Assembly: GCF_030144855.1 (NCBI RefSeq)
Contig: NC_082707.1
Location: 88,536,001 to 88,600,000 of the forward strand
From: Hypanus sabinus
Lineage: Eukaryota
DNA length: 64,000 nucleotides
Reading direction: 5' to 3'
Within the stretch, counting starts at the first letter, position 1. Every line of letters begins with the position of its first letter. The translations under genes and the position numbers were made by a program. Shown piece by piece: positions 5,500 through 61,789 of this stretch. The notes beneath the pieces were generated by a model, which was not told the origin of the DNA, ran no database searches, and saw nothing but the letters and a program-made list of their open reading frames with translations.

Positions 5500-5937
5500 A
5501 TGATATCCAGGCAGAAAGGATATTTCTTTGTCTTACTACTTGCAGCTGCAGGTGTGTTGTACAAATGCTGGGAGATGGAAGGCTGTTATTCTATTAAAAG
5601 TTACATTTTTAGAATATTCCAGGTAAAAAACAATTCTGGGGCAAATGTTTCTGATCCTCCACTCCCAAACATAAAACCCGGGATTATGTTTGTGGAGTCG
5701 ACTGACAACGTAGAGCCGACACCATTAGTGGTGTGTTCAGTGGAGTCTGCTGCTCTCCGAAACCCAGACAAACCAATCTATTACTTCATGAAGGGATTCA
5801 GTGGCAACTTGAGCCAGTATCCACAGCCTGAGTACAAAGGCATCCCATTGCTCTCATCAGTGAGGAATGTCACCATTCTACCCTTGAATCTTGCTGAACT
5901 GTTCGAAGGGACTCCATTGAAAAGCTGGTATCAAAAG
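5500..5937 (+). CDS. A4GNT: alpha-1,4-N-acetylglucosaminyltransferase-like (GT32), coding exon 1 (146 codons)
   Basis: Acceptor tttgttttgcag ends at 5467; ATG at 5500 in gccATG context. Type II membrane N-terminus (RQKGYFFVLLLAAAGVLYK), then GIMFVESTD..CSVESAALRNPDKPIYYFMKG..PLKSWYQK. Phase-0 donor AAG|GTAATC at 5937/5938, the same intron position as mammalian A4GNT. Confidence 0.92.
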
Positions 5938-6911
5938 GTAATCAACAGAAATATCTGATTTTGTTTGGTAAACTCAGTGTTTGACTCAAATTAACTTTTT
6001 TTTAAATGAATATAGTGTATCGGTAGGACTGATGGGAAATAAATATCTAGGGCAGAAGTACTGAATGCAGTGAAAGGTAAAGCCACATCGACAAACATTG
6101 CTTCGCCTATTCTTTACTCTTAAACCAGTGTTGTTTCTGAGAGCATTTTACTGCAGGCCAGATGTTGGAGGCAAGGCAGACACGCTAATGGACACCAAAG
6201 GGAAAGGAACATGGCGTAGTTTGAGACAAGGCAGTGCTGTACAGAGAAAGGGGGGGGGGGGGAAATAAATGACTAAAAATTCAAACTGGATACTTTGGGT
6301 CTCAACTACAGACTGAGCAGAGATATCTGTACAACAGTCACCTGCCTAACCTGGAAGATAGATAAATAAATAAATAACCTCTGCAAATAATGATTTCCCT
6401 TCTCACATGACCAAGAAGCAGAAATCTCTCCTCTATGTACATGCAAAGGTGCTGTGAGATGAAAAATGATTACTGGTGGGAATAGGCGTGAGAGGATAGT
6501 AACAGAGTAGATAAGAAAGAGAGGTGATATGTGGAAGCCAATAAGTGATAGATGGTGAATAGATGTGACCTGTGGGGCAGATGTGGGTAAAGGACTCAGT
6601 GTGTAGGTGATGGGCAGATGAAGGAGGAGAGGGAGAGGAAATTAACTGAGTGATATTGAGATGGAGAATGGGATATGATTAGGAAAGAAGTTGGTGTGTG
6701 TGTGAGAGGACCTGAGTAGGTCATGAGTAGAGAGAGAGTGATGGGGCCAAGCAAGTTAGTTGATCTTGTTTAACTTACATCTTTCAGTTTCCTTTCTTAC
6801 TCAGCTTTTAACCAGGATTTTAAAATCAAGGCAAGCAGTACAATTACAAACTGAATAATTAATAACAAAAATAACATTGGCCTTCAGGGATCAACCCTCG
6901 AAGATAATCCA

Positions 6912-7248
6912 TCAGTGGTAGGAAGTAATGTCCATCTGCCTTAGGCAATTGGTATAATTCTCCCAAACGTCAACTATTTCCACCTCCTTCCTTAACAGGT
7001 CATTAACAATTACACATAATTCTTCAATTATCTTGGGTGATCCTTTCTGAAAATCTTCTAAGTCATTCCACTTTATCTCACAAAAAGATTTTGCCGACAG
7101 CAACACATCCTTTCCTCAATGAGCTTAATGCATTTGCAGAACATTTTGCTGAGGTTGGGTGTGTTAAAAGCTTCAAGTTTCTACAAGTGAACATCTCCAA
7201 TAGCCTGTCCTGCCCAACCGCACTATGGCCAAGAGAGCTCAGCTATGT
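6912..7248 (-). pseudogene. exon B of the same antisense fossil gene (two +1 frameshifts)
   Basis: Acceptor ttcatttag, phase 1. After two 1-nt corrections it reads (D)IAELLGHSAVGQDRLLEMF...VGKIFCEIKWNDLEDFQKGSPKIIEELCVIVNDLL...TSYH*. Confidence 0.45.
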
Positions 7249-7257
7249 CTAAATGAA

Positions 7258-7997
7258 GAGGCTGTTAAATTTTTCACACCCCTGTCAACCGTTATGAATT
7301 TCTACTGATGCACCACAGAAAACATTCTGTCTAGATGCATAATGGCTTCATATGGAAACAGCTTTACATGTGACTGCAAGGAACTGCAGGGAGTTGTGGA
7401 CACAGCTCAGCACATTATGAAAACCAACCTCCCTTCCATGGACATTGCCTATACTTCTCACTGTCTCAGTAAAGTAGCTAGTATAATCAAAGCAACCAAC
7501 TCAATATTCACCATTCTACCCTCTCTCCTCATGAAGAAGGCATAAACCATGAAAGCTTGAACCACTAGGCTCAGTGCTAACTTCTATCTACTGCAATAAG
7601 ACAATTAGAAGTTTCTTGCATATGATAAGCCAGAGTCTTGACCTCACAAACTGCCTTGTTATGATCTTGCTCATTGTAATTTCCCAGTACAGCACTTTCT
7701 CTGTAGCTTTTACACCTTATTCTGTGTTGATATTCTTTTACCTTGATATACCTCAATTTCCCAAGCTATGGGTAAATAGCCCTACTGCCTTGTGGGCAGC
7801 CTCGGGAGCATCAAAGACTACAGGTGTAAAACAGCCAAGCTGGTGCCAAACGTATTGCTTCATAAGCTTTCCTTTGGACTAAATTGGTGAGGCTGAGGGG
7901 GAGATTTTGACGACTGGGCATCTCAGAATCTCCATACCTTCTGCCCAGGCTTTTGATGATGATCATCATCACCCGTTGTTTGAGACAGATGGATGCC
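7258..7997 (+). mobile_element. Rex1/Babar LINE 3' fragment plus a second unclassified repeat
   Basis: Degenerate NFYxCTxENIL and KELQGVVDTAQHI RT C-terminus. The whole block is flanked by aatgaa (7252-7257, 7998-8003). Confidence 0.6.
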
Positions 7998-9680
7998 AAT
8001 GAACACAGATCAATATAATGTTTTCACCTTTATGCACAGTATGCAAGGCAGCCTTTTCTCCCTTTGTGGTAGATGTCACAAATAAAAACAAATTCCAGTA
8101 CCATTACCAATTAAACATAATGATGCAGGAAAGAAGTTTCATTGAATGTGGGACTTTAGGCTCCTGAAAATTTTCTATAGCTGATTAGTGAATGGTGTTC
8201 AGCCAGTATTATATGGTATCACCTGCTGTCGACTCTCGACACTCTTGTGGTTCCCATTTTACTTTCCTCTTAAGGTAGGCCTTACTTTCCTCTAGTGGTC
8301 TTAATGCAGGTGGGAACCTCAGATTGGAGCAGGGAGAGGGTCTAAATGAAAATCAGGTTTATTATCACTGACATATGTTGTGAAATTTGTTTTGTGGCAG
8401 CAGTACAGTGCAAGATATCTGATGGCAGAGGGAATCAAGATATTCCGAATGCACTGATTTTGAGTCCTTAGGCTCTTGTACCTCGTTTATCCCTGATGGT
8501 AATAATGAGGAAAAGTAGCATGTCCCAGATGGTGAGGGTCCTTAGTGGACTTACAACTGGCTGTGTGATAGCAAGCAAAGGGCAGAAGTGGAGGATTGTC
8601 TCTCTGAGTAGTTGTGTATGAAAAGGATCGCTTCTGGGACTTCTGCTGAATAACATCAATGACTTTGATGTGACTATCGGATCAACAGTATGAGTCGTAA
8701 GTTTGGAGTGTTCAGTGATGTCAGTGATACTGAGGGGGATTGTCTGAGCTACAGCAAGTTGTAGATCAGTTCGAAAGCTGGCAGAGTGACTGCAGTTGGA
8801 ATTCAGTCCTAAAACATTCAAGTGATGCACTTAAAGATAAACATTAGATTTGCTTGTCACATTGAAACATACAGTGAAATCATTGTGTCAATTCAAATTG
8901 ACAAGATTTGTGTAGGGGGACACCTACAAAGCTTGCTACGTTTCTGGGACCAAAATACCATGCTCACAACTCACTGACCCTTGCCGTCAATTGTCATGGG
9001 GAGAGCATACAAATTTCTTACAGACAGCGATGGGATTTAAACTCCAACTGATGATTGCAGGAAGCTCACGCTTGAGTGACTAAAGACAACAGCTGTATTG
9101 CTTCATGGCTTTCACTTCAGCCTTGTGCCTCAGGTGACTTTGTTTGTACTTTCCAACTCAGACTGGTTCAAGTCTGTCCTATTACATTAATCAAACACAG
9201 GGTCCAGACAACTCGATCACAGTGTCCTTCTGCAATTCTGCCATTTTACATAATAAATTACTTCATATCTGAGAATGGACCCAGGTTTTGCAGGTTATTA
9301 ACATAAACTCATTGTGTCATGGTGATTTGCTCTGTTTAAGCCCTCCCTGAAAAAGAACCAGTTTACCACATTTCACAAAATTGTGGCTGCAAGAACAGTC
9401 TCACAAAATGGCTGCCTCCCTTTGTGCAACCAGATGGCAAGAACAAAGACATCTTCTCTGTTTCCAGAATCATTGCCTTATTTCTGTCCACTGATTTACA
9501 GATCTTTCTGGCCAACTGTACCCACAGGGTCTTATACAAAGTTATGACAGAAATAATATTTCATTTATAACAAACAACTGTCTTTAGCATCAGGAAGAGA
9601 AAAGGAGATGGAAAACTATGTTTTGCAAGAAAGGAAATTAAGATAATGAATGAAACTTTTCCTTGTCATTTATTCTACAG

Positions 9681-10283
9681 GTAAATCCAGAAAAGGAGAA
9701 ATATTGGACTCATGTACTAGCTGATGGCTGCAGGTTAGCATTGATCTGGAAATATGGAGGAATCTACCTGGATACTGACATTATATCACTGAGGTCTTTG
9801 CCGTTCGCTAACTTTACATGTCCAGAGAACACAGGAACAGTCAGTAATGGGGCACTCGGTTTCCATTATAAGCACCATACCTTTTTGTGGAATTGCATGG
9901 AAGACTTTGTGGATCATTACAATGGGGATATTTGGGGTCAGCAGGGACCTCAACTGATCACCCGTGTGCTGAAGAGATGGTGCAATATTAATGAACTAGG
10001 CACCTTCATTGGCAAGGAATGCAATGGCATCTTTATATGGATCACAAATCGTTTCTATCCAGTCCCATATCCAGCATGGGAGAGGTACTTTGCTCCCTGG
10101 AAAAAGGAGCATGTAGAACAGGCCTTTTCAGATACATATGGAGCACATGTCTGGAACTTTATGAATAAACACAAGAAAAGAAAAGTTGTTGCTGGAAGTG
10201 GATCATTAATGGAACATTTTTTCCAGTTGCATTGTCCAAATACATACAAAAATTTGATTCAATCCAGCAATAGTAGATCCTGA
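9681..10283 (+). CDS. A4GNT: A4GNT-like coding exon 2 (200 codons + TGA)
   Basis: Acceptor tcatttattctacag ends at 9680, phase 0. DGCRLALIWKYGGIYLDTD (DXD motif), WNCMEDFVDHYNGDIWGQQGPQLITRVL, RFYPVPY, HVWN and HCPNTY match A4GNT/A4GALT motifs. The intron and the C-terminus favour A4GNT. Confidence 0.93.
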   Translation, partial: VNPEKEKYWTHVLADGCRLALIWKYGGIYLDTDIISLRSLPFANFTCPENTGTVSNGALGFHYKHHTFLWNCMEDFVDHYNGDIWGQQGPQLITRVLKRWCNINELGTFIGKECNGIFIWITNRFYPVPYPAWERYFAPWKKEHVEQAFSDTYGAHVWNFMNKHKKRKVVAGSGSLMEHFFQLHCPNTYKNLIQSSNSRS

Positions 10284-11129
10284 TTCAGGACCTGATATTG
10301 TACAATGAGTGACATAATTTACTTGACAGATCTTCCAAATAGCAATTTGCATGCAGTGTATGAAAATAATGGGAAATTCAAAGTTCTCTGCACCACCTGG
10401 TCAGGGGTACTGAGTGCAGTGAAAGAATCAGCCACATTGATAAGGATTACTTATATTTTATTGACCTATTTGAAAATCAGTGTGGATTTTTGTTGGTCAA
10501 CTGTTTTTTTACTGTAGGTTGTAACTTTTGATTAATGTAACTTTTAACTTTAATTTTTATCATTTTTCTAGAATTTAATTGCCATACAAGCATTGATCAT
10601 CTCCTCTAGCCTCTGGTGGATCATCCAGTGCTCTTTGTCTTCCTTGTTCATCTTCACATTTCCTCAAGGCTGAGTTGAATCAGGGTATCTTTTCCAATCC
10701 TGTTTTCATCATGGTAAATCTCCCATCCACCCTCCCTAAAGCTTTCATATCCTTTGGATAACACGGCAAACAGAAATGAACACAATACTCCAAGTGTTGG
10801 CTATACAGACTTTTATAGACCTGCAACATTACCTCCCAGCTTTTGAAATCAATCCCTGAATAATGAAGGCCAACACACCAGACGCCTTCTCAACAACACG
10901 ATCAACATGTGCTGTAACTTTGAGGGATCTATGGACATGGGCCCCGAGTTCCTTTTGTTCATCATTACTGTTAGGAATCATGTCATTAATCCTGTATTCT
11001 GCCTTTTCAAGTTTGACTTTCCAAAATGAATCACTTCACACAGCTGTCAGTAATGACTGGTGGTATGTAAGAGTTGGCTTTGGAACTGCTACTTTTCTAT
11101 TAATGTGTTGATCAACTGGATTATGTAAA

Positions 11130-13500
11130 TGAAGGGTTTGTTGCCAAGTTTGTGACACAGGTTCTGTTGAAGAAGCAGAAGCCTTGGATAGATTGAGGAG
11201 AATGGTCAAAGAAGTGACAGATGGAATACGGTGAAGGGAAGTGCAGACTTGTTAGGCTTGTAGCGTCATCTGGAAATTCACTAACCCACACTTTCACATC
11301 CTTACCCAAGTCATTCATAAAAATCACCAAGATCCCCATGGAACACACTGGGCAGATTGTGCTCTATCAACCACTGCCCTTCCCATTCTGTGCACAAGCC
11401 AATTTTCAATCAACACAGTCAGGTTTCTCTGGAGCCATTACTTCTGATTTTCTGAATTAGCCTGCCATGGAACACCTTGTCAGGGTCCTTTCTAAAATCT
11501 ACATACATCACATCCATGCTCTACCTTCATTAATGTTTGTCACATCCTCAAATAATTCATTCAAGCTTGTGAGGCGCATACAAACTTTATACTCTCAAAT
11601 GTCACTTTCAAAGGCCTCCCACTTAACAAGTACACATTTGCCAGAAAACAGCCTGTCTCAATCCTTACTTGCCAGATCCTTTCTGATATCATCAAAACTG
11701 GCTTTTCAACAATTTAGAAATCTCACCCACTAATCAGAACTATCTTTTTCCATTGTTACTTTGATCATTATGATCACTGGATGTAAAATGTTTCCCTACA
11801 CAAACTTCTGTCACCTGCCCTGTCTCATCCTTTATAGTGGATCAAGTATCGCCCACTTTCTCATTGGGATTTCTACATACTAGTTAAGGAAACTTTCTGA
11901 ACACATTTGATACACTCTATCCCATCTAATCCTTTTACTGTATGGGGAACCCAGTCAATACATGGTAAGATAGAATCTATCCTGACAGTGCACTGCCATG
12001 ATATTTTCCCTGACTATTAACACCACCTCTCTTCCTTTAATCCACCCGACCACTCCCTGACACACCCAGAGCAACAAAATTCTGGAATATTGAGCTGCCA
12101 ATCCTATCCGTCCTGAACCAAATCTCACTTCAATATCATAATTCCATGTGTTGATCCATACTCTGAGATCTTTTGCCTTTCCTACAAAATGTCTTCCATT
12201 GAAATATATGCAGCTCAGGACATTCGTTGCACCATGCTCAACCTTTTGATGTCTGAGTTTTCCTGACGTTTTAATAACATGTGTCTCCATAACCTCTCAA
12301 ATATCTCTTCTGGCACTCTGATTCCATCCATCCATGGAGCACTAGCAAACTTTCCTGCTTGGATGTTAGTCCCCTCCAGTTCTGGAGCAGTTTGTCTCTT
12401 CTTACAGGACCCACCTTCCCTGGAAGAGAGTCCAATTATCCAAAAATCTCATGCCATCCCTCTAACGCCAATTGCTTAGACATGTGTCAAGTTGTATAAT
12501 CTTCCTAGTTCTGGCTTCAGTATCACATGGCACGGGAGGCATTCCTGAGATCGCAACACTGGAGGTCCTGCCCCTTAACTTAGCACCTAACTCCTTGAAC
12601 TCACTCTGCAGAAATTCTTCACTCCTCCTACCTACTGTATGTCATTGATCCCTTCATGGAGCACGAGCTCTAGCTGGTCACCTTCCCATTTAAGAATGCT
12701 GAGGACTCAATCTGAGATGTCCTGGACCATAGCACCCAGAAAGCAACATACCACTGGGGAATTTCATTCTTTCCACAGAACATCCTTCTGTTTCTCTAGC
12801 TACTGAATCCCCATCACCACAGCTCACCTATTCTCACCACTTTCTTTGTGAGTCACAAAACCTGACAGTGTCAGAGCTGTGACTGCTGTGACTTTCCTAT
12901 GCTAGGCCATCCCCCACCCGTTGGTATATCTGTTGTTAAGGGGAATGGCTACAGGAGTATTCTGCATTGGCTGTTTAATCCCATTCCTACTTCCTGACTG
13001 TAACACAGATTCCTGTGTCCTGCACCTTCAATGTAACTACCTCTCTATATCTCGCATCTATCACCCCTTCAGCATCCTGAATGATCCGGAGTTCACCACT
13101 TCTAGCTCCAACTCCTATAAGTGGAGTGTTAGAAACTACAGTTAGATGCATTTCCTGCAGCTATGGCTGTCAGGGACACTATACATTACCCTGCTTCCCA
13201 CAACTCATAAAAGTGGCATTCAACTATCCTGACTGGGATCTCAACTGTAACAAACGAGCAAATATAAAGAAATCAAAACAATAAATAAACTTTGGGGAAA
13301 AAGAACTAGATGCAGCCTTTCACTTACTCTGACTAAAGCCTCTCCTTGATGAGCCCTCGAAGGCCTAAAACCTCAAAACCCCACTCAAACACTGTCCACT
13401 CCAGTGATGACCTCTCCATTTCCCCTGCCTTATTCTCATTTGTTCCTGCCAATTAATCCCAATCAGTGATTGCCCATTGCTCAAAACATCAACCTGTGGC
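11130..13500 (-). mobile_element. fragmented CR1 LINE (ORF1 and endonuclease remnants)
   Basis: Minus-strand LSCIYFN..LRVWINTWNYD endonuclease start; decayed ORF1 esterase. Confidence 0.75.
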
Positions 13501-14054
13501 AATCGCTGCCTTATGCACTCATACACAGATGCTATATACATGATTAATTCAGTTTTGCTCGGTCCACCCATAGTTCATAAGCCTTGCCCGACAAATGTGA
13601 TCTGTGTTCTGTCCACCCTCTGCCCTCCTCCCATCATTTGTAGGATCGGTAGAATAGCAACCTAGAGTGTTGCTCAGCTTATCAACTTTATTCTCAGGGG
13701 AAAATGGAGCATGGCTGGGTCTAATTTGTTAATTTCTGGAGTGGTACATTCTGTTAGCAAGAGGTGCAGATGAGTGTTTCATATCATACACCTTAATCTA
13801 CAATCAAAGTCTCCATGTCTCTCCGGTTGCTTCTTTTAAACAAACCTGTTAGAGCTATAAGTAAACTCTCATATGTTGTTTCTAAAGGGGACCCAATCAT
13901 TTCCAATCAATCACCGAGCCCATTACCCAGTCTCCAAAACAGGGAATGTTGGCACATTTTCATTCAGAAATTGGTGTTCTCTGTCTGTAATCTGTTGTTC
14001 TCTCTCTTTTTTCAACAATTCTCATAATTCCAGCAGGTTCAAGAACTGAACCCG

Positions 14055-14510
14055 TTAAAAAGCAAGTCAAGATCACCTAAACACTAGTCCCCCCACCTAC
14101 ACGATATCCATATCCCTCTATTTTCCTTACATCCATTACCTATCCAAACATCTCTTAAAAGCCTTTAATGTATTTGCCTCTACCACTGTACCAGGCATCT
14201 GCCACTCACATCCCCTTTCAACCTACCCCCTCTCAGCTTCAGTACAGACCATTTGGTATTAGAGCATTTCTGCCATGGGAAACAGATACTCCCTGTCTAC
14301 TCTATTAATGCCTCTCACAATCTTAAAAACTTCTATCTGATCTGCCCTCAGGCCCTGGCACTCCAGAGAAAAGAATTCAAGTTTATCCAGTCTCTCAGGA
14401 CAGCATGTGCCCTCTAATCCAGGAAGCATCCTGGTAAATCTCTTCTGCACTCTCACCAGAGACTCAACATTCTCCCTATAGTGGGGCAACTGGAACTGTA
14501 TGCAATACCA
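14055..14510 (-). mobile_element. CR1 LINE 3' end
   Basis: YCIQFQLPHYRENVESLVRVQKRFTRMLPGL..QIEVFKIVRG. Confidence 0.85.
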
Positions 14511-15009
14511 TCTTGAGTCACTTAAACAGCTTTCCACTCAGCCCCCACACAGACACACTGGTGATCAGTGTACCATTCTGTGCACGAGAATGGCTGTGCT
14601 TCCTCCTTGCGATGATGTGGTTTCCGTTGGGTGCTCTAGATTCCTCCTTCATCAAGATGATTTGCTGGAATGGTAACCAAACACTAAATTGTCCCCTAGT
14701 GTGTGAGGGAGTCATAGTATCTGGGGAGGGGGTGGGGTTGGGGGGGCAGGAACTTTTAAAGTACATATATGTCAGCACAAACAACTCTGAGAATCATTTT
14801 CCTGCAGGCATACTCAGCAAATCTAAGGAATAGTAACTATAAAAGGATCAATGAAAGAATAGCCAGAGTGAAGAAGACAAGAACTGTGCAAATGTAAATA
14901 AATAGCAATAAATGACAAGGGCATGAGATAGAATCCATAAAGTGAGATCGTTGGATGTGGGAACATCTCAATGGATGGGCAAGTGAGTGTGGTTATCCCC
15001 TTTTGTTCA

Positions 15010-16500
15010 AGAGCCTGATGGTTGAGGCTGAATGGCCTGTTTCGGTGCTGTATCTCCTATCTTCTCATTGAACTCAGTACAGTGTTCATTCCTTTGGAGT
15101 TGTAAAGCACCTGCTTTACCATATGGTCCTTTCTCTCCAAATCCTGAGCTCTGCAGCTGATAGGGAATTTGGTACTTCTGTTGAACTATTGAACTGCCAG
15201 TTCTGCATCCAATTCTCACTACCGGCCGCAATATCATAACTCCAGGTGTTGATCCATGCTCTGAGCTTACCCACCTGTTCTGAAATTGAAATATACATAT
15301 CTCAGGACACAAGGTGCACCATGCTCAACCTTTTGATTCCTGACTTTGTCTCCGGTCTTATCAACATCTGTCTCCCAACCTCTCCACTAACTGTTCTGGC
15401 ACTCTGTTCCCATCTCCCTGAAACTCTAGTTTAAACCTTCCTACTAGGATATTAGTGCCCCTCTGGTTCAGGTGCAAACTGTTCATTCTCTACGGGTCCC
15501 CCCATCCCTGGAAGAAAGCCCGGTGATCCAAAAATTTTATGCCCTCTCTACTACATCAGCTCGTTTGTCCCATATTCAACTGTACAATCTTCCTAGTTCT
15601 AGCCTCACTAGCACGTGTACAGGTAGCGATTCTGTGATCACAGTCATCAAGGTCTTGCCCTTTAAGCTAGCACCTAACATCCTGAACTCTGTACGCAGAA
15701 CCTCATCGATTGTCCCAGTTATGTTATTGGTACCTATGTGGACCACATCCTCTGGGTGTTAATACTCCAACTTAAGAATGCTGTAGATGCTACCCAAGAT
15801 ATACTGGACCCTGGCTCCTGGGAGGCAACATAACATTCTGGAATCTCGTTCTTATCAACAGAGCTTCCTGTCTGTTCCCTTAACTAACGAATCCCCTACT
15901 ACCACAGCGTACTTCTTCCCCCCTTTTCCCTTTTGAGGTTGACTCAAAACCAGAGACAGAACTGCTGAGATTTTCCTCTGTTAAGTCATTCCCCCCCCAC
16001 ACACAATATTCAAAGAAGTAAACTGTTGTTGAGAGTATGGCCACAGGGGTACCCTGCACTGGCTCCTGAACCCAATGCCCCATCCTAATTGTCACCCAGT
16101 TTCCTGTGCCAAGCACCTTGGGTATAACTGCTTCTCTATATGTCCCATCTATCATCCCTTCAGCTCCTGATGATCTGTAGTTCACCCAGTTCCAGCTCTA
16201 ACTCCATAACACAGATTTTTAGTAGCTGCAGCTAAATGCACTTGAGGCCATTGTCATAGTCAGGGACACTGGAAATTTCCTTGCTTTCCCACTTCCTGCA
16301 GGAAAAGCATTCAACAATCTGCCTGTTATCTCTACTGTCCAAACTGAGCAGATGTAAAGAAGGGAAGGAAATATAACTTTACCTAGAGCTTATCCTTTTT
16401 GCCTTCTCTGACTAAAGCCTTTCTTCACTGAAGCCTGGAAGATTTCTCTAATTCTGTCCACTCCAAAAATGACTGCTGCACATGCTCCTGCGTTCTTTTA
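15010..16500 (-). mobile_element. CR1 LINE ORF1/ORF2 remnants
   Basis: LRAWINTWSYDI; ORF1 YREAVIPK..WVTIR..QGTPVAI. Confidence 0.75.
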
Positions 16501-16819
16501 ATTTGCTACTGCTAATCAATGCCAAACACTGATTGGTCGTTGGTCAGAGCTCAGATAAACTGCTGGGATCCACTGCTGCCTTTTTCTACTCAGTTGTTGG
16601 ACCTGAGTGAAATCCCCTCCTCTCAAACTTCTGATGTCCAAGTTCCCAAATGCCAAATGATCGCTGGTCAGAGCTCCAAGATGTAGGTAATATATCAATT
16701 GTCAATGAGGTCGAACGAGACAGGGGGCAACAAATACTTTTGTTGATTTTCATGTTTTGGATAAACCATCGATGGAGGTAATAGTAATGATTTTAATAGT
16801 GTTATTGGGGAATGTATCT

Positions 16820-17714
16820 GTCTTTTGACATGTAATCAGTGAAGGTGCTTTGGACATCTACGACAGCTTTCAAATTGATGGACAGCCTTTACAATGGACA
16901 TTGATGACAAAATTTAAGGAGCATTTTTTCCCAAGTAAAAAGCATCATGTTCTTTTCCTGTGAACGGAAGCAAGGTGTCGGCTTTGACCAATACTTAGTT
17001 GAGCTTCACACACTGAGTAAGTCCCATGAGTTTGGAGATTTGAGAGAATCATTAGTTTATGACAAAATAGTTTGTGGAATCACATTTCAGTTTGAACTTG
17101 TGCAAAGACTCACTGATCACATGGATGTAGTCCAAAGCTCCATTATGAGGCAAAGGAAGCAATTATGGTCTCACAGCAGAAACAAGAAAAGGAACAAAAG
17201 ATAGGATCTTGGCAAAGGGATGTGAAAGAAATGAACTCGTAAATCAGAGTTCTCAAAAAGACACTGGTATTAATGCCACAAGTCAAAGCAAGACAGTTGT
17301 AGAAACAAAGAGCATTCCAGAAGGGATTATTAAGCCACCATAGAGATGGATTGAGTGTGATTGAGTAATTGTAGGATTGCATATTCTCTTTGCAATTGAA
17401 GGCTATGTTAATATCTTCAATGGAAGACATTATTGTGTCTTGCAGTTTTGTGAGGGCATACTATCGTGTTTGTTTTCTTTAAAGGAAAAAGATGTGTTAT
17501 TATGTGTGCACATAATAGGGAACTTCAGTTCCCAGTGTGCAATGCAGGTTGTTCACCTGGAACTAGATGTGACTCTGGTGAATGGATGATAGACTCTCTT
17601 GGTGGGCTGGAGGGTCCAGAGTAAAATATGGTCGAGTTGAAGCCATTCTGTAAATAAACAATGTTTTAATTTTTTACCTACGCAAGTTTGTCTTTATTAA
17701 GAACAATCATAACA
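16820..17714 (+). mobile_element. internally deleted Gypsy element: gag remnant, PPT and 3' LTR (17495-17714)
   Basis: FDQYLVELHTLSKSHEFGDLRESLVYDKIVCGI (gag); PPT aaaggaaaaaga; LTR termini tgttat...ataaca with an internal aataaa. Same family as 43222-43766. Confidence 0.7.
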
Positions 17715-18379
17715 ATAATCACCAATATTTTAGATCCATTTCAGAGTTATCAGAGAACTTCTGCAAGTGAGAAGACTCAGACTTGTACTGAAAGTCTGAT
17801 GTGTACAGTATGAACAGAAATAGAGACAGGAAAGTGTCATGGTCCCTTCTGGCAATCCCCCACCTGGCTATTTACATCAGGAATTGGGCCTCAAATCCCT
17901 CGTTTAGTTTCCAATCATTCTCAGGTTCCACTAACTACACACACCTTCCTTCCATCGGCAAATGCAGGATAAAAACCCTGTAATCACAACAAGGAGATGC
18001 CAGTTCCTTGGTTGACGCCGGTGTGAGTAACTTTGTTTCATGGTTCTTAGAACTACTGGTTCTAAGTCTAGCATTGCTCTTGCATACTGATTCCACGCTT
18101 GCTACAGCAAGAAAGCCTCCTGACTCTGCCTCTGCGCCTTTGTTTTTCACTTGTGTTTGTCCGCTGCCTTGCTCATGTAACAGAAAGTCCCTTGTGGCAG
18201 TCCATTGCCATTCACCACCAACTCAGACGGAGAAATCTTCTAAACTCCAGTTAGTACAAGCACAGAGAAATATAACACTCTTCATATGCTAAGCATTTCA
18301 TGCCTAGAATCATTCATGTGAAAGTCCTGTGGACTGTCTGCAATGCTGCATATCCTTTCTTGGTTGTGGGAGTGAGCAC

Positions 18380-19670
18380 AAGATTTTAAAAGTGAGCAGG
18401 GCCTACCAGACCCATTGAGTGAGCTTTAGATATCACAGTCCATTAGGTAGAAAGGCCATTGTGTGAATGTACAGAATTAGATGAGTGAGCTGAAAGCTTT
18501 GACTCAATGGGCTTAGGCAAGAAACAGCAGAGGGCAAGACAAGTTTCTACTGTGTTCCTTTTTTTCTTTGTCTATTAGTGTCTAGTTACAGTAATGAAAA
18601 TGGATCCAGACTCAGGTATGTTCATCATGGCAGATGTAGGATATCTGGTTGATAACTATTTGCCTACATCCAACTTGAACTCCTTACAGACCACGAGAAC
18701 TGGAGCTACAGTTGGATTACCTATGACTCAGTCTGGAGAATGAGAATGTGATGGACAGAAGCTACAGAAAGGGAGTTGTTCCTAAGTTGCAGGAGGAAGG
18801 TACCTGAGTGACATCAGACAAGGAAATAGGCAGATAGAGCAGAGTACACCTGTGGCCATTCCCTTCCAGTAACAGGTATAATGCTTTAGACATTGCTTTG
18901 GTGGTGACCTTCTGGGGGGAGGTCACAGCAACTGGGTCTCTGACACTGAGCCTGGCTCCGCAACTTAGAAAGGAAGGAAGGAGAAGAAGTGAGCAGTTGT
19001 AATAGGGTTTCCAATAGTTCAAAGAGCAGGTAGCAAAATTGTGGATCATTGGGATGTCTTCTGGGGAGGGAATGACCTGAACAAAAAGGACGAGTTACAC
19101 CTGAACTCAAGGGGAACCAGTATCCTTGTGGGCAGGTTGTCAGGAGTATGGTAACTAGAATCAATACTGGATATTCAGGGTCTATACAATATGTTTGAAA
19201 AGGACAGGGAGGGAAGTTAAAGGGGTGGTTTGCAGCATTGTTAATCAACGATAGTATCACAACTGAAGAAACCGTCTCCTGAGCCTGTGTGGGTGGAAGA
19301 CACAAACAGGAAAGGGGCAATCACTTTTTTGGGGTTAGGCAGAGAGGGCATCAGAATGGAGTTGAGGGGGATAATAAATCGGCCATGATTGAATGGAGTG
19401 CAGGCTCGATGGGCCGAATAACCTGATTCTTATTCTATATCTTATGGTCTTATTTTATGGATTCTGCAAACCAACAGAGGCACAGTGGAATAGATTGGGA
19501 TGCAAATTTTGGAAAGATGTAAAATTTTGAAACGCTTATTGTTATGTATCTTTCCTGATATTGACTGGCATCTTTTTTATACAAAAGGATTAGATGGGGT
19601 GCAATTTGTCAGAAGGATCCCTGATGAACTACGTGGAGAAGAGGGGAGGCCATACTAGATCTGGTGCTAG
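18380..19670 (+). mobile_element. degraded CR1 LINE 5' region with a CR1 3'-tail insertion
   Basis: ORF1-like ESTPVAIP..NRY segment, followed by endonuclease remnants. Confidence 0.65.
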
Positions 19671-20285
19671 TGTGATGGCATTGGGTTCACTATCTGTTAG
19701 GCCCTAAATGACACATTTAAATTCAGACAAATAGTTCTTACACAGATTTAAATGTGATTCACTCACCACATTATCATTCAGATTATTCATATAGATCACG
19801 AGCAACAACAGACCCAGCACAAATCCCTGTGGCATTCCATCAGTCACAGGTCTCCAATCGGACAGGCAACCACCTCCTACCACTCTGTGGCTTCTCGGAC
19901 AAAGGCCATTTCTAATCCAATGTACGACCTCATCCTGAATGTCATGTGACTGAACCTTCCTGACCAAACTCCCATGAGGGGCCTTGCCAAATGCCTTGAT
20001 AAAATACATGTTGTCAACATCCACTTCCACATTCACTTGTCTTCATCAACTTTCCTGGTAACTTCCTTGAAAAACTCAATAAGATTGGTTAGACACGATC
20101 TAACATGCACAAAGCCATGCCAACTATCCCTGCTCTGTCCCTGTATATCCAAATATATGCTGTCCCTTAGAATACATTCCAAAAATGTTCCCATGACTGA
20201 TGTCAGGCTCATTGGCCTATAATTCCAGGTGTTGATCCATGCCTGCTCATCTATCTTCTCTACGATACTTATTGCATTGAAATAT
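19488..20285. repeat. high-identity duplicate of 43767-44978
   Basis: Nearly identical sequence with the same chimeric junctions; this copy lacks ~430 nt (44031-44456). Confidence 0.9.
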
Positions 20286-21599
20286 TCCCAAAGTTCTCTA
20301 TTTTATGAACATTCTTGATCACAAGTAGTCCGTGGATAATAACAGTGCAAATTTAAATTAAAACCAGCTTTGATTAATTTGTTGCAGTGCAAACAAAGCA
20401 TGCAAAGCAGAGAGTGGATGAGGGATACAGCCTGTTCAAACCTGCACACTTCAAACTTGCATGGAAATGATTCAAAGGCCAAATAATATTTACTTGAGAC
20501 ACTGATCCTTTTCAGTTCCACGTACGAGAACATCACTGGTGTCAACACCAAAGCAGATTCTTCTCTGAAATTGTTGTGTTCACTTTAGAGTCACTAAGGC
20601 TGAAATGTATCTCATCAGAACATAAGGCCATGCATTCTCTTGACATCTTTTATTTCTATATTGTGTTTCCTTTGGAATTATATGGTGGTTCTCTTCTCAT
20701 TTTAGGAAAATATATTCTGTCACATCCATGCCTTTTTCATACTGGAGAGGGATCCATAGAAAAATATACCTTAGACATCGCTTTGGTTTTGGTTGGTATT
20801 GCTTTCTTGTTTAAAGTATTAAAGAAATCAGAATGGTCAGGAGTCCTGAAATTATATTGATCTATGTTGAAAAAGAGAAATAGCAAACAAAAATCATGCA
20901 ACGAAGCAAGTTTTGGAACTATGGACACTGGTTTCCTCACTTGTGAAAAACTGTGCTGGAAACTAATGCGGTGCAGGATTTCAGCAGGCCAAGCAGCATC
21001 AATGGAAAAGAGAAGACAGTCACTGTTTCAGGCTGAGCTTCTTCATCAGGAAAACATCGACTGTTCAGTCATTTCCATAGATACTGCCTGACCTGCTGAG
21101 TTCCTCCAGCATTTTGTGTGTTTCTTGGATTTCCAGCATTGGCAGATTTTCTCTCGTTTGTGCAGTGCAGTATTTTCTGCTTTCCCTATTTTACTGTCCA
21201 GTTTGACCTGATGAGGGTCTCTCTGCAAGATACTGCGTATTTTCCATTTTATCTCTGCTCTTCGTTACATGTGCATCACAGTTGAAGCCAGAAATGAAAG
21301 CAGATTTCCTGGTTTACTTGCATTTCTTCTATGGGAGTAGGATCAGATTTGAAATACCCTGCAGATAACCTTTATTCAAACAATGAAATGTTTGAAATTA
21401 TTTGAAAAGTGATTATTATTTACATCTGATCTGTCTGGAGGAGGGCAAATGTTATGAGGTGAATGGGGACGGGAGGGGGTAACACAATACGGGAGTATTG
21501 AGACACAATTTACAATTGTTACTGAAAATGCCCGGCAAGTCGAACAGCATCTGTGGTGCGAGAAACAGAGATCATTCGGATGTCACAGCAGCAAATCTA

Positions 21600-21910
21600 T
21601 TCGAGCAGCTGTCTCACAGCTTTGGCGAATGAACATTGGGTGTTGTTTGTGTGGAGTTTGCATGCTCTCACTGTGAATTTGTGAATCTCCTCTGGGTTCT
21701 CCATTTTCTTCCATATTCCATAAAACATGTGGGTTGTTTAGTTAATTGGCTGCAATTAATTGCTCCAAATGTCTAAGTGAGTGGTAATAATTGACAGGAG
21801 TGTGAGGGGTGAGGGATTAAGTTTTAATTAGTTTAGAATCAGTGGAAATGAGTGCTTGATAATCAATGTGAACTTGGTGGGCTGAAGGACATGTTTCCAA
21901 CTGCATAACT
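21600..21910 (+). mobile_element. degenerate V-SINE (HE1-like)
   Basis: V-domain-like tgtgtggagtttgcatgctctc and CR1-type tail gggctgaaggacatgtttcc. Confidence 0.6.
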
Positions 21911-22944
21911 CCCTACTGGCCAGAAAGATACTAGTGGAAAAGGCCTCTCTCTGCAGCAGCTTCATCATTCTCTCTCAAAGTTGTCCTGGTCCACAATTCC
22001 ACTTCCTCTATCAGCACATTCAGTGATTCCTTTCTTCCTTCATCTTTGTCATCAAAATTCACAACAGTTCAGGGATCCTAATTCACTTCAGGCCATTTGT
22101 TCTGTTGTGTTTACACTGGCAGAATATCACCACAGTTCTTAGTTTCACTTTCCAATGTTTCTCATATCAATAAATTCCAAGACTTGCATAGTGTTGAATT
22201 CTTCTACCACAACACCAACAGTATTTCAACATTCTGTATACATTTTACAAACTCCAGCACCTTTTTTTTTCATTCCTTCTGGCATTATCCTTTGCAGATC
22301 TATTCAATACTGACCACCTCAGCAATATTGGTACATTCTCTGACTAAGCTCTCTTAATTCAATGTTAAACACTGATCAGAGAAACATTCCTACTCAGAAG
22401 ATGAGTTTTGAGCTGATGGAGGGCTTTGCAAAAGATCAATCCCAACATCATCGTCAAACCTGCTGTGATTTTGGTCTTGGTGTTGTTTGCTGAGATTACT
22501 TTGGTCTCAAAGAAGCTGAATGGTAGCTCTGAGACATCACTGCACACCTCCTCTGGGTCATTACCCATGCAGTAAGTATTTGACCATTGTCACTGATCTA
22601 ATTTCTTGAGATCTTTCCTCCACAGCGTCATGACTCCCTAACTGTGCCCAGCCCAGTACATTGTAGTTTCTAGTGAAGCCCAATAATTAGCTAAAAAAAC
22701 AAAGAAACACACTGCCATTGGTTGATTAGTCATATTATAGTAGTTACATGAACAAAGTCACCAGAGAGAAGTACTGTAGCGAGGAAGTGGCCTCTTTGCT
22801 CAACAATTTGAGATACAGCCAGCATCAGATGGAGACCCTTTCAGTGGGAAAATTGTTGCTTGACCCAGCACTATCCAACATTTGTATGTGCTAAAGATCA
22901 AAGAAAAATTCAGGATGGTTCAAATAAATCCATATTTACAATGC

Positions 22945-23050
22945 AAACATGAGGAAATCTGCAGATGCTGGAAATTCAAACAGCACACACAAAATGCTGG
23001 TAGAACACAGCAGGCTAGGCAGCATCTATAAGGAGAAGTACTGTCGACGT
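22945..23050 (-). mobile_element. Penelope-derived terminal fragment, absent from the paralogous site near 3635
   Basis: Matches 47861-47965; truncated at gtcgacgt inside the hammerhead motif. Confidence 0.7.
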
Positions 23051-23364
23051 GTAACTCTGAATTAAAATTGCAGCTCAACAGTTTTGCCAGTTTGGGGCAT
23101 TTATGATGAAAGGTCATCAGTCCATCAGTCCATAACACTAACTCAGGTTCCTCTCTCTACACTGCTGCCATACACACAGGGTATTTCCAACATTCTCCTT
23201 CCTGTCAGATTTCCAGTAAATGTGGTGTTCTGTGTCTCCTTGTTCCTACACTGTCTTTCCCCCTCCCCATCCTCTCTCCTCTCCTTCTATTCACACGTCC
23301 TCACAGAGATCCTCACCAGTACCAATACCAATTAAGATAAATGTGTAAAAGATAACATTCTTAC

Positions 23365-23640
23365 CTCGTAAATGATAGTGAGTTAACGAGTAGTGTGTAT
23401 TCAATATGAGCCCCATTTTATACTGACACATTTCTACAAGTAGGTTAGTAAAATTTATATCATCCCAATAAACAAATACCAGAGGATTTACACATTCCGT
23501 TGCTTCCATTACTGAATATCCTAGTTCCATTCCCATTGCTTCAACGTCTGAGAAGTTAACTACATGCACTCTTCTTCCAACAACTCTGGAGAAAGTGTCC
23601 ATTAAGTTTCTTTTATCTTTTCCATGGAGAACATTGTCTC
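23365..23640 (-). pseudogene. exon A of an unidentified antisense fossil gene (5' truncated)
   Basis: Stop-free for ~92 codons (DNVLHGKDKRNLMDTFSRVVGRRVHVVNF...THYHLR). Ends at a consensus donor GAG|GTAAGA, phase 1. Confidence 0.5.
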
Positions 23641-25407
23641 AGAATCAGAATCAGCCAGGTTTGTTATCACTGCCTTGTATAATGGGAAATTTGGGTTTTG
23701 TTTATCAGCATTGTACAGAACATAAAATGACTGTAAATTGCAAAAGAAATGAATAGAGTGAAGTAAAGAAATATTGAGGTAATGTTGATGGGTTTCATAA
23801 TGTAGGGAAGAAGTTTCATTGACTGTGGGACTTTAGGCTCCTGTACATTTTCTATAGCTGGTTGGTCAATGGTGTTCAGCCTGTATTATACCATATCTAC
23901 CATTGTAATCACGTGCTGCCGACTCTCGGTACTCTTGTGGTTCCCATTTTACTTTCCTCTTAAGGAAGGCCTTTCTTTCCAGTCAGCTTATTGATTCTAA
24001 TAATCTAAGAAAAGTAATGCATAAGTTTCCCAACCTATCTCCCAAAAGTACCAATTTCAAATTCTTAATTTGGGTATGCATTCATCAGCAAACTTTTCCA
24101 AAATTTATTATGATTGACATATACTGTGAAATTTGTTTTGTGGCAGCAGTACAGTGCAAGATATCTAATAGTAGAGGGAAAAAAAATATTCTTAATACGT
24201 TGATTTTGGGTCTTCAGACTCTTGTATCTCATTTATCCCCAAAGGTAATAATAAGATAATAATAAGATGGTGAGGGTACTTAGTGCTAAAGTGGACTTAC
24301 AATTGTCTGCATTATGGGAAGCAGAAGGATTGCTTCTCTGAGTAGTTGTGTATGAAAAGGATCACGTCTGGGACTTCTGCTGATTAACAAGAATGACTTT
24401 GATGTGACTATCGGATCAACATTATGAGTCGTAAGTTTGGAGTGGTCAGTGATGTCAGTGATACTGAGGGGGGTTGTCTGAGCTACAGCAAGTTGTAGAT
24501 CAGTTGGAAAGTTGGCAGCTAGAATTCAGTCCTGAAACATTCAAGTGATGCACTTAAAGATAAAGATTAATTTGTCACATAGAAGCATACAGTGAAATCA
24601 TTGGTTCAATTGTAATTAATTATATTTGTGTAGGGGACACCTACAAAGGTTGCCACATTTCTGGGACCAACATACCATGCTCACAACTCACTGACCCTTG
24701 CCCTAAATGGTCATGGGGAGAGCGTACAAATTTCTTACAGACAGCAGCGAGATTTAAACTCTAATTGATGATTGCAGGAAACTCATCCTTCAGTGGCCAA
24801 AGGTGACACATGCATTGCATCATGGTTCTCACTTCAGCCTTGTGCCTCAGGTGAGTTTGTTTGTACTTTCCAACTCAAACTGGTTCAAGTGACATCAGCC
24901 ATACACGTGGTCTGGACAATCAGATCACAGGCTGCCTGCTGTTTCCTTCTGCAATGCTACCACTTTACATAATAAATGGCTTCTTATCTGGGAATGGACT
25001 CAGGTTTTGCATATTATTAGCAGAAACTCCTTGAGTCCATGTTCATTTGCTCTGCTTAAACTCTCCCTGAGAAAATAAAAATGTCACTAAATAATTCAGA
25101 AATTTGTGGCCGCAAGGATAAACTTACAAAATGGCTGCTTCCATTCCTGAAGCAACTTGGCAAGAAGAAAAACATTTTCTTTGTCTGTTTCCACCATTCT
25201 TGCTTCATTCCTGTTCACTGATTTGTAGATCTCTTTGGCCAACAGTAAACCATGTGGTCTTATACAAAGATATGACAAAGATAGTGTTTCAGTGATTATA
25301 AAGAACCATCTTTAGCTTCAGGAAGAGAAACAGATGGAGAAATGATAATTAGAAATAAAGGGAATTAATATAATGATTTTAAATTTTTCTTGTGACTCAT
25401 ACTACAG

Positions 25408-25855
25408 GTAAATCCAAAAATGGAGCAGTATTAGGCATGTACTTGCAGATGGCTGCAGGTTACCATTGATCTGGAAATATGGAGGCATCTAACTGAAAAC
25501 TGACATTATATCAATGAGGTCTAAGCAGTTTGCTAACTTTAACTGGCTCAAATGTTTTCAGTAATGAACCAATGGGTTTCCAGCAGAAGCACCATACCTT
25601 TTTGTGAAATTGTATGGAAGATTTTGTGACCAATTCTATTGGGCATGTTTGGGGCCAGCAAGGTACTTGACTGATTTCCCGTGTGCTGAAGAGATAATGC
25701 AATACTAGTAAACTAGCCACATTCATCAGCAAGGAATGCAATGGCATCTCTATATGGATCACAAATCATTTCTATCCAGACAATATATAAAATGAGAGAG
25801 GTACTTTACTTTTTTTAATTAAAGTTTAATTCAATCCAGCAATAGTACAGCATAA
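25408..25855 (+). pseudogene. A4GNT-like pseudogene, exon 2 (copy 2)
   Basis: actacag|GTAAATCCA is homologous to 9681. TGG>TAG at codon 9, further stops and frameshifts, and a ~150-nt deletion covering the APWKK..HCPN region. Upstream 24105-25407 is paralogous to intron 8360-9680. Confidence 0.9.
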
Positions 25856-30711: not shown

Positions 30712-31154
30712 GGATCTTTTGAAAAAAAAATCTCAGCTCCATACTACAACCTTTATTTAGAAGGGATGTCTCCTGATATTAATATTTACAATTGCAGGTG
30801 TGCTGTTGAGATGCTAGAAATTGAACCTTTGTTATTACTTTCAAAGCTACACCTTCAGAATTTCCAAGGTGGAACAGAATTCTGATGCAAGTATTTCTGA
30901 ACCTGAAACTCCAGACAAAGACCCTGGGATTATATTTGTGGAGTCGACTGACAATGTAGAGTCGGCGCAATGGATGGTGTATTCAGTTGACTCTTCTACC
31001 CTCTGAACTCAGACTTCATCTTCTACATCATGAAGCGGTTCAAAGACAACTTGAATCAGTATCCACATCCTGACTACACAGCCGTCTCTTTGCTCTACTT
31101 AGTGAAGCTTCTTGTTATTCTCCTCTGAACTGTTTGAAGATATTCCTTTGAAAG
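30712..31154 (+). pseudogene. A4GNT-like pseudogene, exon 1 (copy 3)
   Basis: PGIIFVESTDNVESAQWMVYSVDSS aligns to PGIMFVESTDNVEPTPLVVCSVESA. Acceptor AG and start ATG appear lost; CGA>TGA at 31004; several indels. Upstream 30530-30580 resembles 5285-5335. Confidence 0.88.
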
Positions 31155-54000: not shown

Positions 54001-54530
54001 TCCTAATCTGCAGAGGTTTGCTCTTTAGTCTCAGCCTGTATGTAGGTAGGAGAAGAACAGCCAAGGGATCAGATTTTCCAAAATGTGGTCTGGGCATGGA
54101 AAATTGCCATTCCTCCTTTCGACAAAACCACCATATCCGAGCACCACTGAGAGTTTATCATGAAACACACACCTTCAGCTTTTGCCTTTTCCAAATCAGC
54201 AGTTTGGTGCATCCTCTGAATCAAGATGCTTTGGGTTTGATTGCTGTATCTGGTGTGCTGGGAGTAAGTCATGTCTCATTCAAACACAAAACACGATGAT
54301 CTCCCTTTTCCCTCCAATACAGCAATCTTTCCCTCAGGTCCTCAATTTTGTTCTCAAGCAACTGCAAACCTGCTAACAAGATGCTGGGTAGAGGGTATCT
54401 CATTTCTCTGTGTTTCAGTCTGGCTAAGAGTCCCCACCCCCCACCGCCATACTTCAGGAAATGCTGATGAACCTTCATCTGCTTAAAGGTACCATACTTG
54501 CTTCCTTGAAAGTTAAGTCTGACAGGCCTT
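51040..54530 (-). mobile_element. cluster of Rex1/Babar fragments with a nested + strand CR1 3' end (53545-53900)
   Basis: LNDYRPAALTSMAMK, HFGKSDPLAVLLLP, GVCFMINSQWC and LENKIEDLRERL. Confidence 0.75.
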
Positions 54531-54917
54531 TCATGAGATCATAAAATGTCATGATTAAGTAGATTTAAAAGCACATTGCTTAATGGGAAACTGCATGCTG
54601 CAGATTGTAGTGAAATTAATTCAAAAGAGGTATATTTAGAAGTGTTATATGTAACCCGCAGAATGTCATTGAGTTCTCATGCACCATCTTCCCCAGCTAA
54701 AGATTTATATTTTATTTTAATACAATTTAAGATATTCTAACATTAAGGCAAAATATACAAATAGAGGATGAATATTTAAGATCAGAAATAAATTTTGTCC
54801 TTAAGGGGCCAAAGCTGGAAGACATTTCATTGGTGGTGAGTATTAAGACCAGTCTCTAATCTTAGCTGTTTGTTATAATTTTACCTATCATTAACCATTT
54901 TAATCTCTCTACATCAC

Positions 54918-55555
54918 AGTCTGTCTGTCTGTCTAGGTACCATATCCAATGTGGACGTTGGTGACCATGGTTTTCCATACAGACCTATCCCTTGTTCTTT
55001 GGATGACTTCCATTTCCTCGATGTGTAGCCACCTGGCTAGGCTTTTGATGTACAAAAGCCGAGGTCTTCCTCTAGGCTTGCTCCCCTCGATCTTTCCAGA
55101 GAGTCTGAGTTTTTCCAGTTCATCTTTCCGCATGATGTGTCCTATGAATCTGAGTTGTCTTTCTCTTATTGTTGTTATGTGTGATCTCACTGCTTGGGCT
55201 CTTCTGAGAACTTCTTCATTTGATGTGCGTGTGGTCCATGATATTTTTAACATTCTCCTGAGAAGCAAAATTCAGCTTCTTCTTCTCTCTTTTCCATTGC
55301 TGTGGAAATGGTCCAGCATTCACGTCCGTAAGTCAGGATAGAATAAATGTAGCACTGTAGTGTTCTGTCCTTACTGTACATGCTCACCTTCCTGTCTGTT
55401 AATATGGTCTTCATTTTCTGGAATGCTTCTTTCACCATTGCTATTCTGTATTTGATATCTGTGTCACACCTGCCATCACTTGTTATTTGGCTGCCAAGAT
55501 ATCTGAATTTGTTGACTTGTTTGATGTTTCTATTTCCGATCTTGATCACACATCG
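54918..55555 (-). mobile_element. RTE-clade LINE 3' end with (AGAC)n tail
   Basis: QVNKFRYLGSQITSDGRC..RIAM; RRMLKISWT..NEEVL..RQLRFIGHIMR..GKIEGSKPRGRPR. Confidence 0.88.
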
Positions 55556-61662: not shown

Positions 61663-61789
61663 GTGACAGGCTGAAGGACTTGTTCCTCTCTGTGCAACTT
61701 AAACTCAATTTCACATGCTCCCTTAAAGTACCTGTTATAGTGTCCTTATGTAATGGCTGCAGCCACTGCAAACTGGGGTCCTTCTCAAC

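What the first reader, a model, noticed from the sequence alone, without database searches (positions are those of the whole stretch)
6912..23640. Fossil antisense gene of unknown family nested in A4GNT intron 1, split between two paralogous copies
Seen: copy 2 retains a minus-strand, stop-free ~92-codon segment (23640-23365) ending in GAG|GTAAGA (phase 1); the functional copy lacks it at position ~8115. The shared anchor is ccagtacca(t/a)taccaattaa (8095-8114 = 23316-23335). In the functional copy, removing the block flanked by aatgaa (7258-7997) restores tattgatctgtgttcatttag|AC at 7249/7248, a branch-like motif plus an acceptor, also phase 1. The reconstructed intron is ~149 nt. The spliced product reads ...VNPLVFVYWDDINFTNLLVEMCQYKMGLILNTHYSLTHYHLR-DIAELLGHSAVGQDRLLEMFTCRNLKLL...VGKIFCEIKWNDLEDFQKGSPKIIEELCVIVNDLLRKEVEIVDVWENYTNCLRQMDITSYH*, about 200 aa, needing two single-base corrections in exon B. 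I do not recognise the family. Inference: the short intron, low GC and several surviving CpGs suggest an integrated gene from a DNA virus or DNA transposon rather than a host gene. A death-fold (CARD-like) host exon pair is a weaker alternative.
Basis: partly seen in the sequence, partly recalled or inferred. Interest (0 to 1): 0.8.

Follow-up and report, generated by a model that had tools for sequence, protein, structure and literature searches.

The report
Intron gene fossil split by LINE
The proposed spliced gene is largely a retrotransposon read backwards, and what is left is two short open frames with no known relatives that are likely the decayed remains of an old gene of unknown family, now predicted to do nothing.

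Summary
The splice model fails. One LINE retrotransposon fragment (Rex1/Babar-like; the name is recalled) covers 7091-8114 on the + strand and is interrupted by a second repeat at 7759-7999. The claimed acceptor (7249/7248), the first ~52 codons of 'exon B', most of the '149-nt intron' and the 'anchor' are all LINE sequence.

Two low-copy minus-strand open frames remain, one on each side of that LINE: A (23339-23638, 100 codons, with a strong donor-like site) and B2 (6915-7088, 58 codons). Both show a weak coding signature (G at codon position 1 exceeds position 2: p 0.003 and 0.03, post hoc). Neither has a credible relative in any library searched. Older 66-77% copies of B2 and of the flanks were found only inside the ~1 Mb glycosyltransferase cluster. 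Recent changes are mostly non-synonymous, as expected for neutral decay.

Best reading (0.55): an inert fossil of an old protein-coding gene of unknown family, cut by the LINE and scattered by segmental duplication and deletion. Chance open frames are the main rival (0.33). Viral origin is neither shown nor excluded. Low interest.

The parts
5500..5937 (+).
   Evidence: Open frame with ATG at 5500, GT at 5938
9681..10283 (+). Coding exon 2 of copy 1
   Evidence: Pfam Gb3_synth 5.8e-43 and Gly_transf_sug 3.4e-10; acceptor before 9681
6817..6911 (-). Low-copy flank downstream of piece B2, shared with older copies
   Evidence: 66-70% match to 54734-54829 and to L079
6912..7089 (-). Piece B2: 58 open codons plus stop; candidate coding fossil
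   Evidence: copies L024 97% and L079/L094 66%
7091..8114 (+). LINE fragment (Rex1/Babar-like, name recalled): 5'-truncated, internal deletion at 7148, 3' UTR and short tandem tail. Holds the claimed acceptor and half of 'exon B' in antisense
   Evidence: PF09004 at 7e-4, below cut-off, on copy L042
7759..7999 (.). Second high-copy repeat nested in the LINE
   Evidence: 2267 first-look candidates, 40 scored, 87-89% identity; LINE resumes at 8016
8095..8114 (+).
   Evidence: Aligned to tails of L070-L073
8120..8290 (.). Low-copy flank; follows the 461-nt deletion that removed piece A from copy 1
   Evidence: 83% to 23797-23980
23316..23335 (+). Same LINE tail in copy 2, joined by a ~4-kb deletion to DNA upstream of exon 1
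23339..23638 (-). Piece A: 100 open codons, donor-like AG|GTAAGA at 23365/23364; candidate coding fossil; single copy
23639..23796 (.). Another repeat end that cuts piece A at its 5' side (right edge approximate)
   Evidence: Many contigs with loose ends at 23638-23640 and high depth at 23634-23695
23797..24104 (-). Low-copy 5' flank of piece A, with older copies in the cluster
   Evidence: L068 72%, L131 69%, L094 77%
25436..25778 (+). Broken exon 2 of copy 2 (pseudogene)
   Evidence: Split, with stops
54734..54919 (-). Older 66% copy of the end of B2 and its flank, cut by another LINE
   Evidence: E 3e-16; score 135 against a maximum of 62 in 300 shuffles

Best explanation
A LINE fragment covers 7091-8114 and contains the claimed acceptor and intron, and the two open minus-strand frames on either side of it (A, 100 codons; B2, 58 codons) are likely remains of one old protein-coding gene of unknown family, now predicted to be inert. 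Inferred order of events: (1) The sequence lay in this intron before the deeper duplications of the glycosyltransferase cluster (copies up to ~34% apart). (2) It likely stayed under some protein constraint longer in this lineage than in the L079 lineage. (3) The LINE landed between A and B2, and a second repeat landed in the LINE. (4) The gene segment duplicated (~15% apart today). (5) One deletion removed A from copy 1 and another removed B2 from copy 2. Since then it decays neutrally and makes no product. Origin is open. A mobile element or virus is somewhat more likely than a lost host gene (about 60:40, because no host family matches). By eye A has the strand/helix order of an AAA+/P-loop-like domain with a dead P-loop; this is recalled, no test supports it, about 0.15 overall.
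For: SHOWN: LINE extent. Colinear flanks in copies 1 and 2, and in older copy L079.
Coding signature G1-G2: A p=0.003, B2 p=0.031 against stop-free shuffles; ranks 9 and 6 of 409 open stretches, among mostly recognisable coding frames (recognition by eye).
Donor-like AGGTAAG has P=0.017 per 305 nt.
B2 against L079: mismatches 15/43, 9/43 and 19/45 at codon positions 1, 2 and 3; position 3 > position 2, p=0.027 one-sided and post hoc. GC->AT changes exceed the reverse 21:9 towards L079, p=0.04.
Single-sequence AlphaFold gives ordered alpha/beta models, pLDDT 73.6 and 66.9.
PRESENT DECAY: A vs organism B 6 non-synonymous of 7; B2 vs paralogue 6 of 6; neutral expectation ~74%.
Against: No credible homologue anywhere, so coding status rests on statistics chosen after the fact.
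The G1-G2 test has limited power and specificity. The real exon 2 scores p=0.23. 20 of 618 low-copy open stretches >=90 codons pass 0.17, A itself did not appear in that list (0.16-0.19 depending on ends), and Pfam named only 3 of the 20 credibly.
B2's amino-acid make-up is not protein-like (p=0.37).
The older copies have stops in the B2 frame and no G1 excess (6/42 vs 13/42). The 54.8-kb copy shows no position bias (12/29, 9/29, 12/29).
Only 1 of 5 models was confident.
The two frames are not in register across the LINE, and no good acceptor precedes B2.
Survival of both frames under long neutral decay is unlikely (0.014 x 0.057 at 15.5% per lineage), so the model needs the extra step (2).
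Confidence: 0.55

Rival explanations
1. A and B2 are chance open frames in old non-coding intron DNA, picked out because they read like protein.
For: No homologue in any library (and others). 102 open stretches >=91 codons in the window. Older copies lack the frame and the G1 excess. Recent changes are neutral. The same region already yields a convincing-looking false protein from antisense LINE.
Against: Two neighbouring same-strand frames both rank in the top 9 of 409 for G1-G2. A rare donor motif. Position-2 deficit against L079. Ordered models.
Confidence: 0.33
2. A is a real (possibly still used) exon of a nested antisense gene. The LINE fell into its intron, and the true acceptor and start of the next exon were lost by a later deletion.
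For: Near-perfect donor, P=0.017; the 26 nt after it are 46% T against 30% in A. This explains the frame offset and the good survival of the frames. The 5-nt direct repeat at the LINE edges is only P=0.06, so a deletion is not excluded.
Against: 6 of 7 changes in A against organism B are non-synonymous. A is cut by a repeat at its 5' side and sits in a pseudogene copy 16 kb from B2, in the wrong order for splicing to it. No host family matches.
Confidence: 0.1
3. One reading: two exons joined over a ~149-nt intron, giving a ~200-aa protein of an integrated DNA virus or transposon.
For: The donor-like site and the hexamer repeat exist as letters.
Against: The acceptor, the first ~52 codons of exon B, most of the intron and the anchor are LINE. 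Organism B also runs unbroken across 6700-7315.
Confidence: 0.02

Closest known systems
Genomic protein fossils from transposable elements or host genes (Frith 2022, PMC9004415; passages read)
   Same: Decayed, frame-broken, formerly coding DNA in vertebrate non-coding regions, which the paper says is hard to identify with standard methods such as BLAST.
   Different: Those fossils were assigned by homology to known TE or host proteins. Here no protein match was found, so coding status is only statistical.
Rex1/Babar non-LTR retrotransposons (PMC6274825, passages read; assignment of this copy recalled from motifs)
   Same: Truncated dispersed copies with a conserved 3' UTR followed by an oligonucleotide tail. 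C-terminal frame on the + strand.
   Different: This copy has lost the central RT region, so the family name rests on a sub-threshold Pfam hit and memory. It explains only 7091-8114.
Degraded Maverick/Polinton fossils and non-retroviral endogenous viral elements (PMC8097293, PMC11089739; passages read)
   Same: Low-copy eroded coding remnants. The latter paper notes highly degenerate EVEs in sharks.
   Different: No viral protein match, no terminal inverted repeats, no neighbouring viral genes, and no A32-type ATPase match.
AAA+/P-loop ATPase domain and death-fold domain (both recalled resemblances)
   Same: By eye: a hydrophobic strand ending in two aspartates and alternating strands and helices (AAA+-like); a ~91-codon phase-1-ended unit (death-fold-like).
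   Different: No canonical Walker A motif. No Pfam match to either. The models contain strands, unlike all-helical death folds, but are of low reliability.

Membership tests
Rex1/Babar-like LINE (7091-8114) | Dispersed, truncated multi-copy element | tested here: met
   307 candidates, 40 scored, on many contigs; 13 of 19 loci span the claimed boundary
Rex1/Babar-like LINE (7091-8114) | Conserved 3' UTR followed by a short tandem tail | tested here: met
   4 of 4 loci colinear through 8016-8118; feature described in PMC6274825 passage
Rex1/Babar-like LINE (7091-8114) | RT domain that groups with Rex1/Babar | tested here: inconclusive
   Central part deleted; tblastx to two RT-region copies gave nothing; PF09004 19.6 bits against cut-off 21 on L042
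Rex1/Babar-like LINE (7091-8114) | Target-site duplication | tested here: inconclusive
   5-nt direct repeat at 7085-7089 and 23334-23338, P=0.06 by chance
   Inside the LINE, antisense
Endogenous viral element | Homology to a viral protein | tested here: inconclusive
   No match by sequence or Foldseek on weak models; divergent short fossils can be missed
Endogenous viral element | Neighbouring viral genes | tested here: inconclusive
   Flanks are host exons and retroelements; two short flank frames gave no family
DNA transposon / Maverick | Terminal inverted repeats around the element | tested here: inconclusive
   Only short, imperfect pairs; ends may be deleted
DNA transposon / Maverick | Dispersed copies elsewhere in the genome | tested here: inconclusive
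   None in 367 kb outside the cluster; whole-genome searches missed even the 66% copies inside the cluster
AAA+/A32-type P-loop ATPase | Walker A motif GxxxxGK[ST] (motif recalled) | tested here: not met
   Absent from the translation of A
AAA+/A32-type P-loop ATPase | Profile or fold match to the family | tested here: inconclusive
   No Pfam hit; fold searches on single-sequence models uninformative
Death-fold (CARD/DD) exon | Six-helix bundle and Pfam death-fold match | tested here: inconclusive
   No Pfam hit; models show strands but have pTM 0.56-0.57
Functional gene today | Purifying selection | tested here: not met
   A 6 of 7 and B2 6 of 6 non-synonymous; B2 vs organism B 4 of 7 listed; small numbers
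Functional gene today | Antisense transcript using the donor | not testable with these tools
   Only assembled contigs could be laid

The most novel reading that the evidence does not exclude
A and B2 are the only trace found of a protein family absent from 1.84 billion representative proteins: an AAA+-like gene from an unsampled virus or transposon that was captured in a glycosyltransferase intron, kept under selection in one paralogue lineage for a long time, and then broken by a LINE.
Probability: 0.12. Interest if true: 0.55.

Novelty: new member of a known kind. Interest (0 to 1): 0.2.

Why it matters
Mostly as a caution: an antisense LINE plus a chance hexamer repeat produced a convincing false intron and half of a false protein. 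If the residual pieces are coding, they mark a protein family missing from the libraries searched, and its age can be bracketed by the cluster's duplications. They are short, broken and unassigned, so they open no clear question yet.

Tried and rejected
SEQUENCE SEARCHES
- Piece A against 1.84 billion representatives: one hit, P0001 (E 2.8e-6). It is a singleton tandem-repeat reading and was rejected.
- Word-index searches: A 'longer', B2 'longer' and 'near'. Nothing found; weak evidence by the tool's own note.
- No positive control showed that proteins of this animal group are in those libraries.
- PDB sequences: nothing below E 0.5.
- Pfam, NCBIfam and PHROGs: nothing credible.
- Viral contigs and prokaryote genomes: none.
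- Metagenome hit L058 is an 18-aa chance match inside an unrelated long frame.
- Own-genome hit L057 (E 0.94) rejected.
- Phage hit H1 (E 0.4) did not reproduce against the annotated gene.
- Polyomavirus large T (PF06431) and A32 ATPase (PF04665): no match over cut-off in the genome, none at this locus.
- Rfam: none in 5000-26000.

STRUCTURE
- Foldseek: no match at E<=0.001 in PDB or the viral library.
- VIA-align: best Z 4.6 (rmsd 2.8, 57 aligned) and 3.3 (rmsd 8.4, 66 aligned); no family stands out.
- The complex-prediction tool and the protein atlas were not available.

READS AND EARLIER NOTES
- No RNA holder listed.
- The first 91 letters of organism B's contig over piece A could not be placed.
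- No earlier notes for this place.

CLUSTER AND LITERATURE
- No second copy of A in ~0.98 Mb of the cluster plus the window.
- Five literature searches. I saw the listings and searched passages in four papers; none described this locus. No supplements were read; EVE catalogues in supplements of PMC11089739 could bear on the viral reading.
Full report
SETTING. The window is G000:C16:88536001-88600000 of a 4.0-Gb genome. It lies in a cluster of alpha-1,4-glycosyltransferase copies: 21 of 22 exon-2 matches fall on C16 at 88.05-89.08 Mb, and Pfam gives Gb3_synth for exon 2. Copy 1 is intact (exons 5500-5937 and 9681-10283). Copy 2 has lost exon 1 by a deletion and has a broken exon 2. Copies 1 and 2 differ by about 15% in shared intron DNA. 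A 97-99% paralogue of copy 1 lies ~0.4 Mb away (L024).

THE SPLICE MODEL FAILS. A DNA search with 6900-7260 returned many dispersed matches, most starting at about 7147. With sensitive alignment, 13 of 19 such loci run unbroken across 7220-7290, through the claimed acceptor (7249/7248) and the claimed insertion edge (7258). Locus L042 also matches 7091-7148 colinearly, so the element begins at 7091 and has an internal deletion. A second repeat occupies 7759-7999 (2267 candidates, 40 scored). Beyond it, 8016-8118 again matches dispersed copies. The + strand reads as the C-terminal frame of a LINE. 'Rex1/Babar-like' is recalled, with a sub-threshold Pfam hint and the 3' architecture described in PMC6274825 (passages). 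A contig of a second organism runs unbroken over 6700-7315 with 18 differences, so the insertion is shared. The acceptor, about 52 codons of 'exon B', most of the 'intron' and the anchor are therefore LINE.

WHAT REMAINS. Piece A (23339-23638, 100 codons) abuts the LINE tail in copy 2. Piece B2 (6915-7088, 58 codons) abuts the LINE's other end in copy 1. Both are on the minus strand. Flanking blocks are colinear in the two copies, and an older copy, L079, holds a 5' flank block and the end of B2 in the same order, so they were likely neighbours. A 5-nt direct repeat at the two LINE edges could be a target duplication (P=0.06). The frames are not in register across the LINE. A carries a near-consensus donor 26 nt from its end (P=0.017 per 305 nt) followed by T-rich DNA, but no good acceptor precedes B2. 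Whether an intron ever lay here is open.

ARE THEY CODING? For: G is enriched at codon position 1 over position 2 (A p=0.003, B2 p=0.031; ranks 9 and 6 of 409). Against L079, B2 differs at 15/43, 9/43 and 19/45 sites by codon position (p=0.027 post hoc), and L079 has drifted further towards AT (21:9, p=0.04). Single-sequence models of A are ordered alpha/beta (best pLDDT 73.6, other four 43-57; 66.9). Against: these tests were chosen after the fact. The real exon 2 fails the same test (p=0.23). 20 of 618 low-copy stretches pass the threshold while A is borderline and was not listed, and Pfam names 3 of those 20 credibly. The older copies have stops and no G1 excess, and the 54.8-kb copy shows no position bias. 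Recent changes are neutral: A 6 of 7 non-synonymous against organism B, B2 6 of 6 against L024 and 4 of 7 listed against organism B, where 13 of that contig's 18 differences were shown. Under neutral decay both frames would survive with probability 0.12 x 0.24 over half the copy-1/copy-2 distance and 0.014 x 0.057 over twice that. A fossil reading therefore needs constraint lasting until roughly the LINE insertion.

HOMOLOGUES. None credible in 1.84 billion representatives (A only), word-index searches, PDB sequences, Pfam, NCBIfam and PHROGs, or viral, metagenome, prokaryote and phage DNA. No positive control showed that this animal group's proteins are in those libraries. In ~0.98 Mb of the cluster plus the window there is no second copy of A. 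B2 has copies at 97% and 66%, and the 5' flanks at 69-84%. None was found in 367 kb outside the cluster. Whole-genome searches missed the 66% copies, so distant dispersed copies are not excluded. The pattern fits an old part of the duplication unit better than an active transposon family.

MECHANISM. Shown: LINE extent, nested repeat, deletions, older cluster copies, and an excess of non-synonymous recent changes. Inferred: A and B2 were one coding unit, constrained for a time, broken by the LINE, parted by reciprocal deletions, and inert today (0.55). Resemblances to AAA+/A32 ATPases, polyomavirus large T and death domains are recalled. The Walker A motif is absent, and profile tests gave no support.

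NOVELTY. A protein fossil broken by a LINE is a known kind (PMC9004415, passages). Degenerate viral fossils are reported from sharks (PMC11089739, passages). Mavericks were not found in the few chondrichthyans screened, and their intact genes lack introns (PMC8097293, passages). Five searches listed nothing on this locus. Interest 0.2.

Noticed in passing
G000:C16:88.05-89.08 Mb: Large expansion of alpha-1,4-glycosyltransferase copies, many broken (21 exon-2 matches; further exon-1 remnants). The window holds one intact copy and three remnants (25436-25778, 30809-31083, 61789-62148).
   Followed up: partly
window 8207-8276 and 23853-23962; L068 7591-7699; L131 7312-7596: A ~100-nt block kept at 69-83% in several cluster copies, ending in a pyrimidine tract plus AG on the + strand. 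It could be an old splice or regulatory element rather than coding DNA.
   Followed up: partly
L131 7273-7600: That block is tandemly duplicated at a 188-nt spacing.
   Followed up: no
window 59958-61219: 38-nt minisatellite, 33 copies, 94% matches; it produces long spurious open frames.
   Followed up: no
window 51327-54919 and G000:C16:88.79-88.80 Mb (L094): Inverted segmental duplicate at 74-87% identity inside the cluster.
   Followed up: partly
window 9557-9647 vs L027 and L028: A ~90-nt piece just before exon 2 is inverted in two paralogues relative to copy 1.
   Followed up: no
G000:C26:132273629-132274174: A 40%-identical glycosyltransferase match in a 399-codon open frame; probably the single-exon family member (name not tested).
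   Followed up: no
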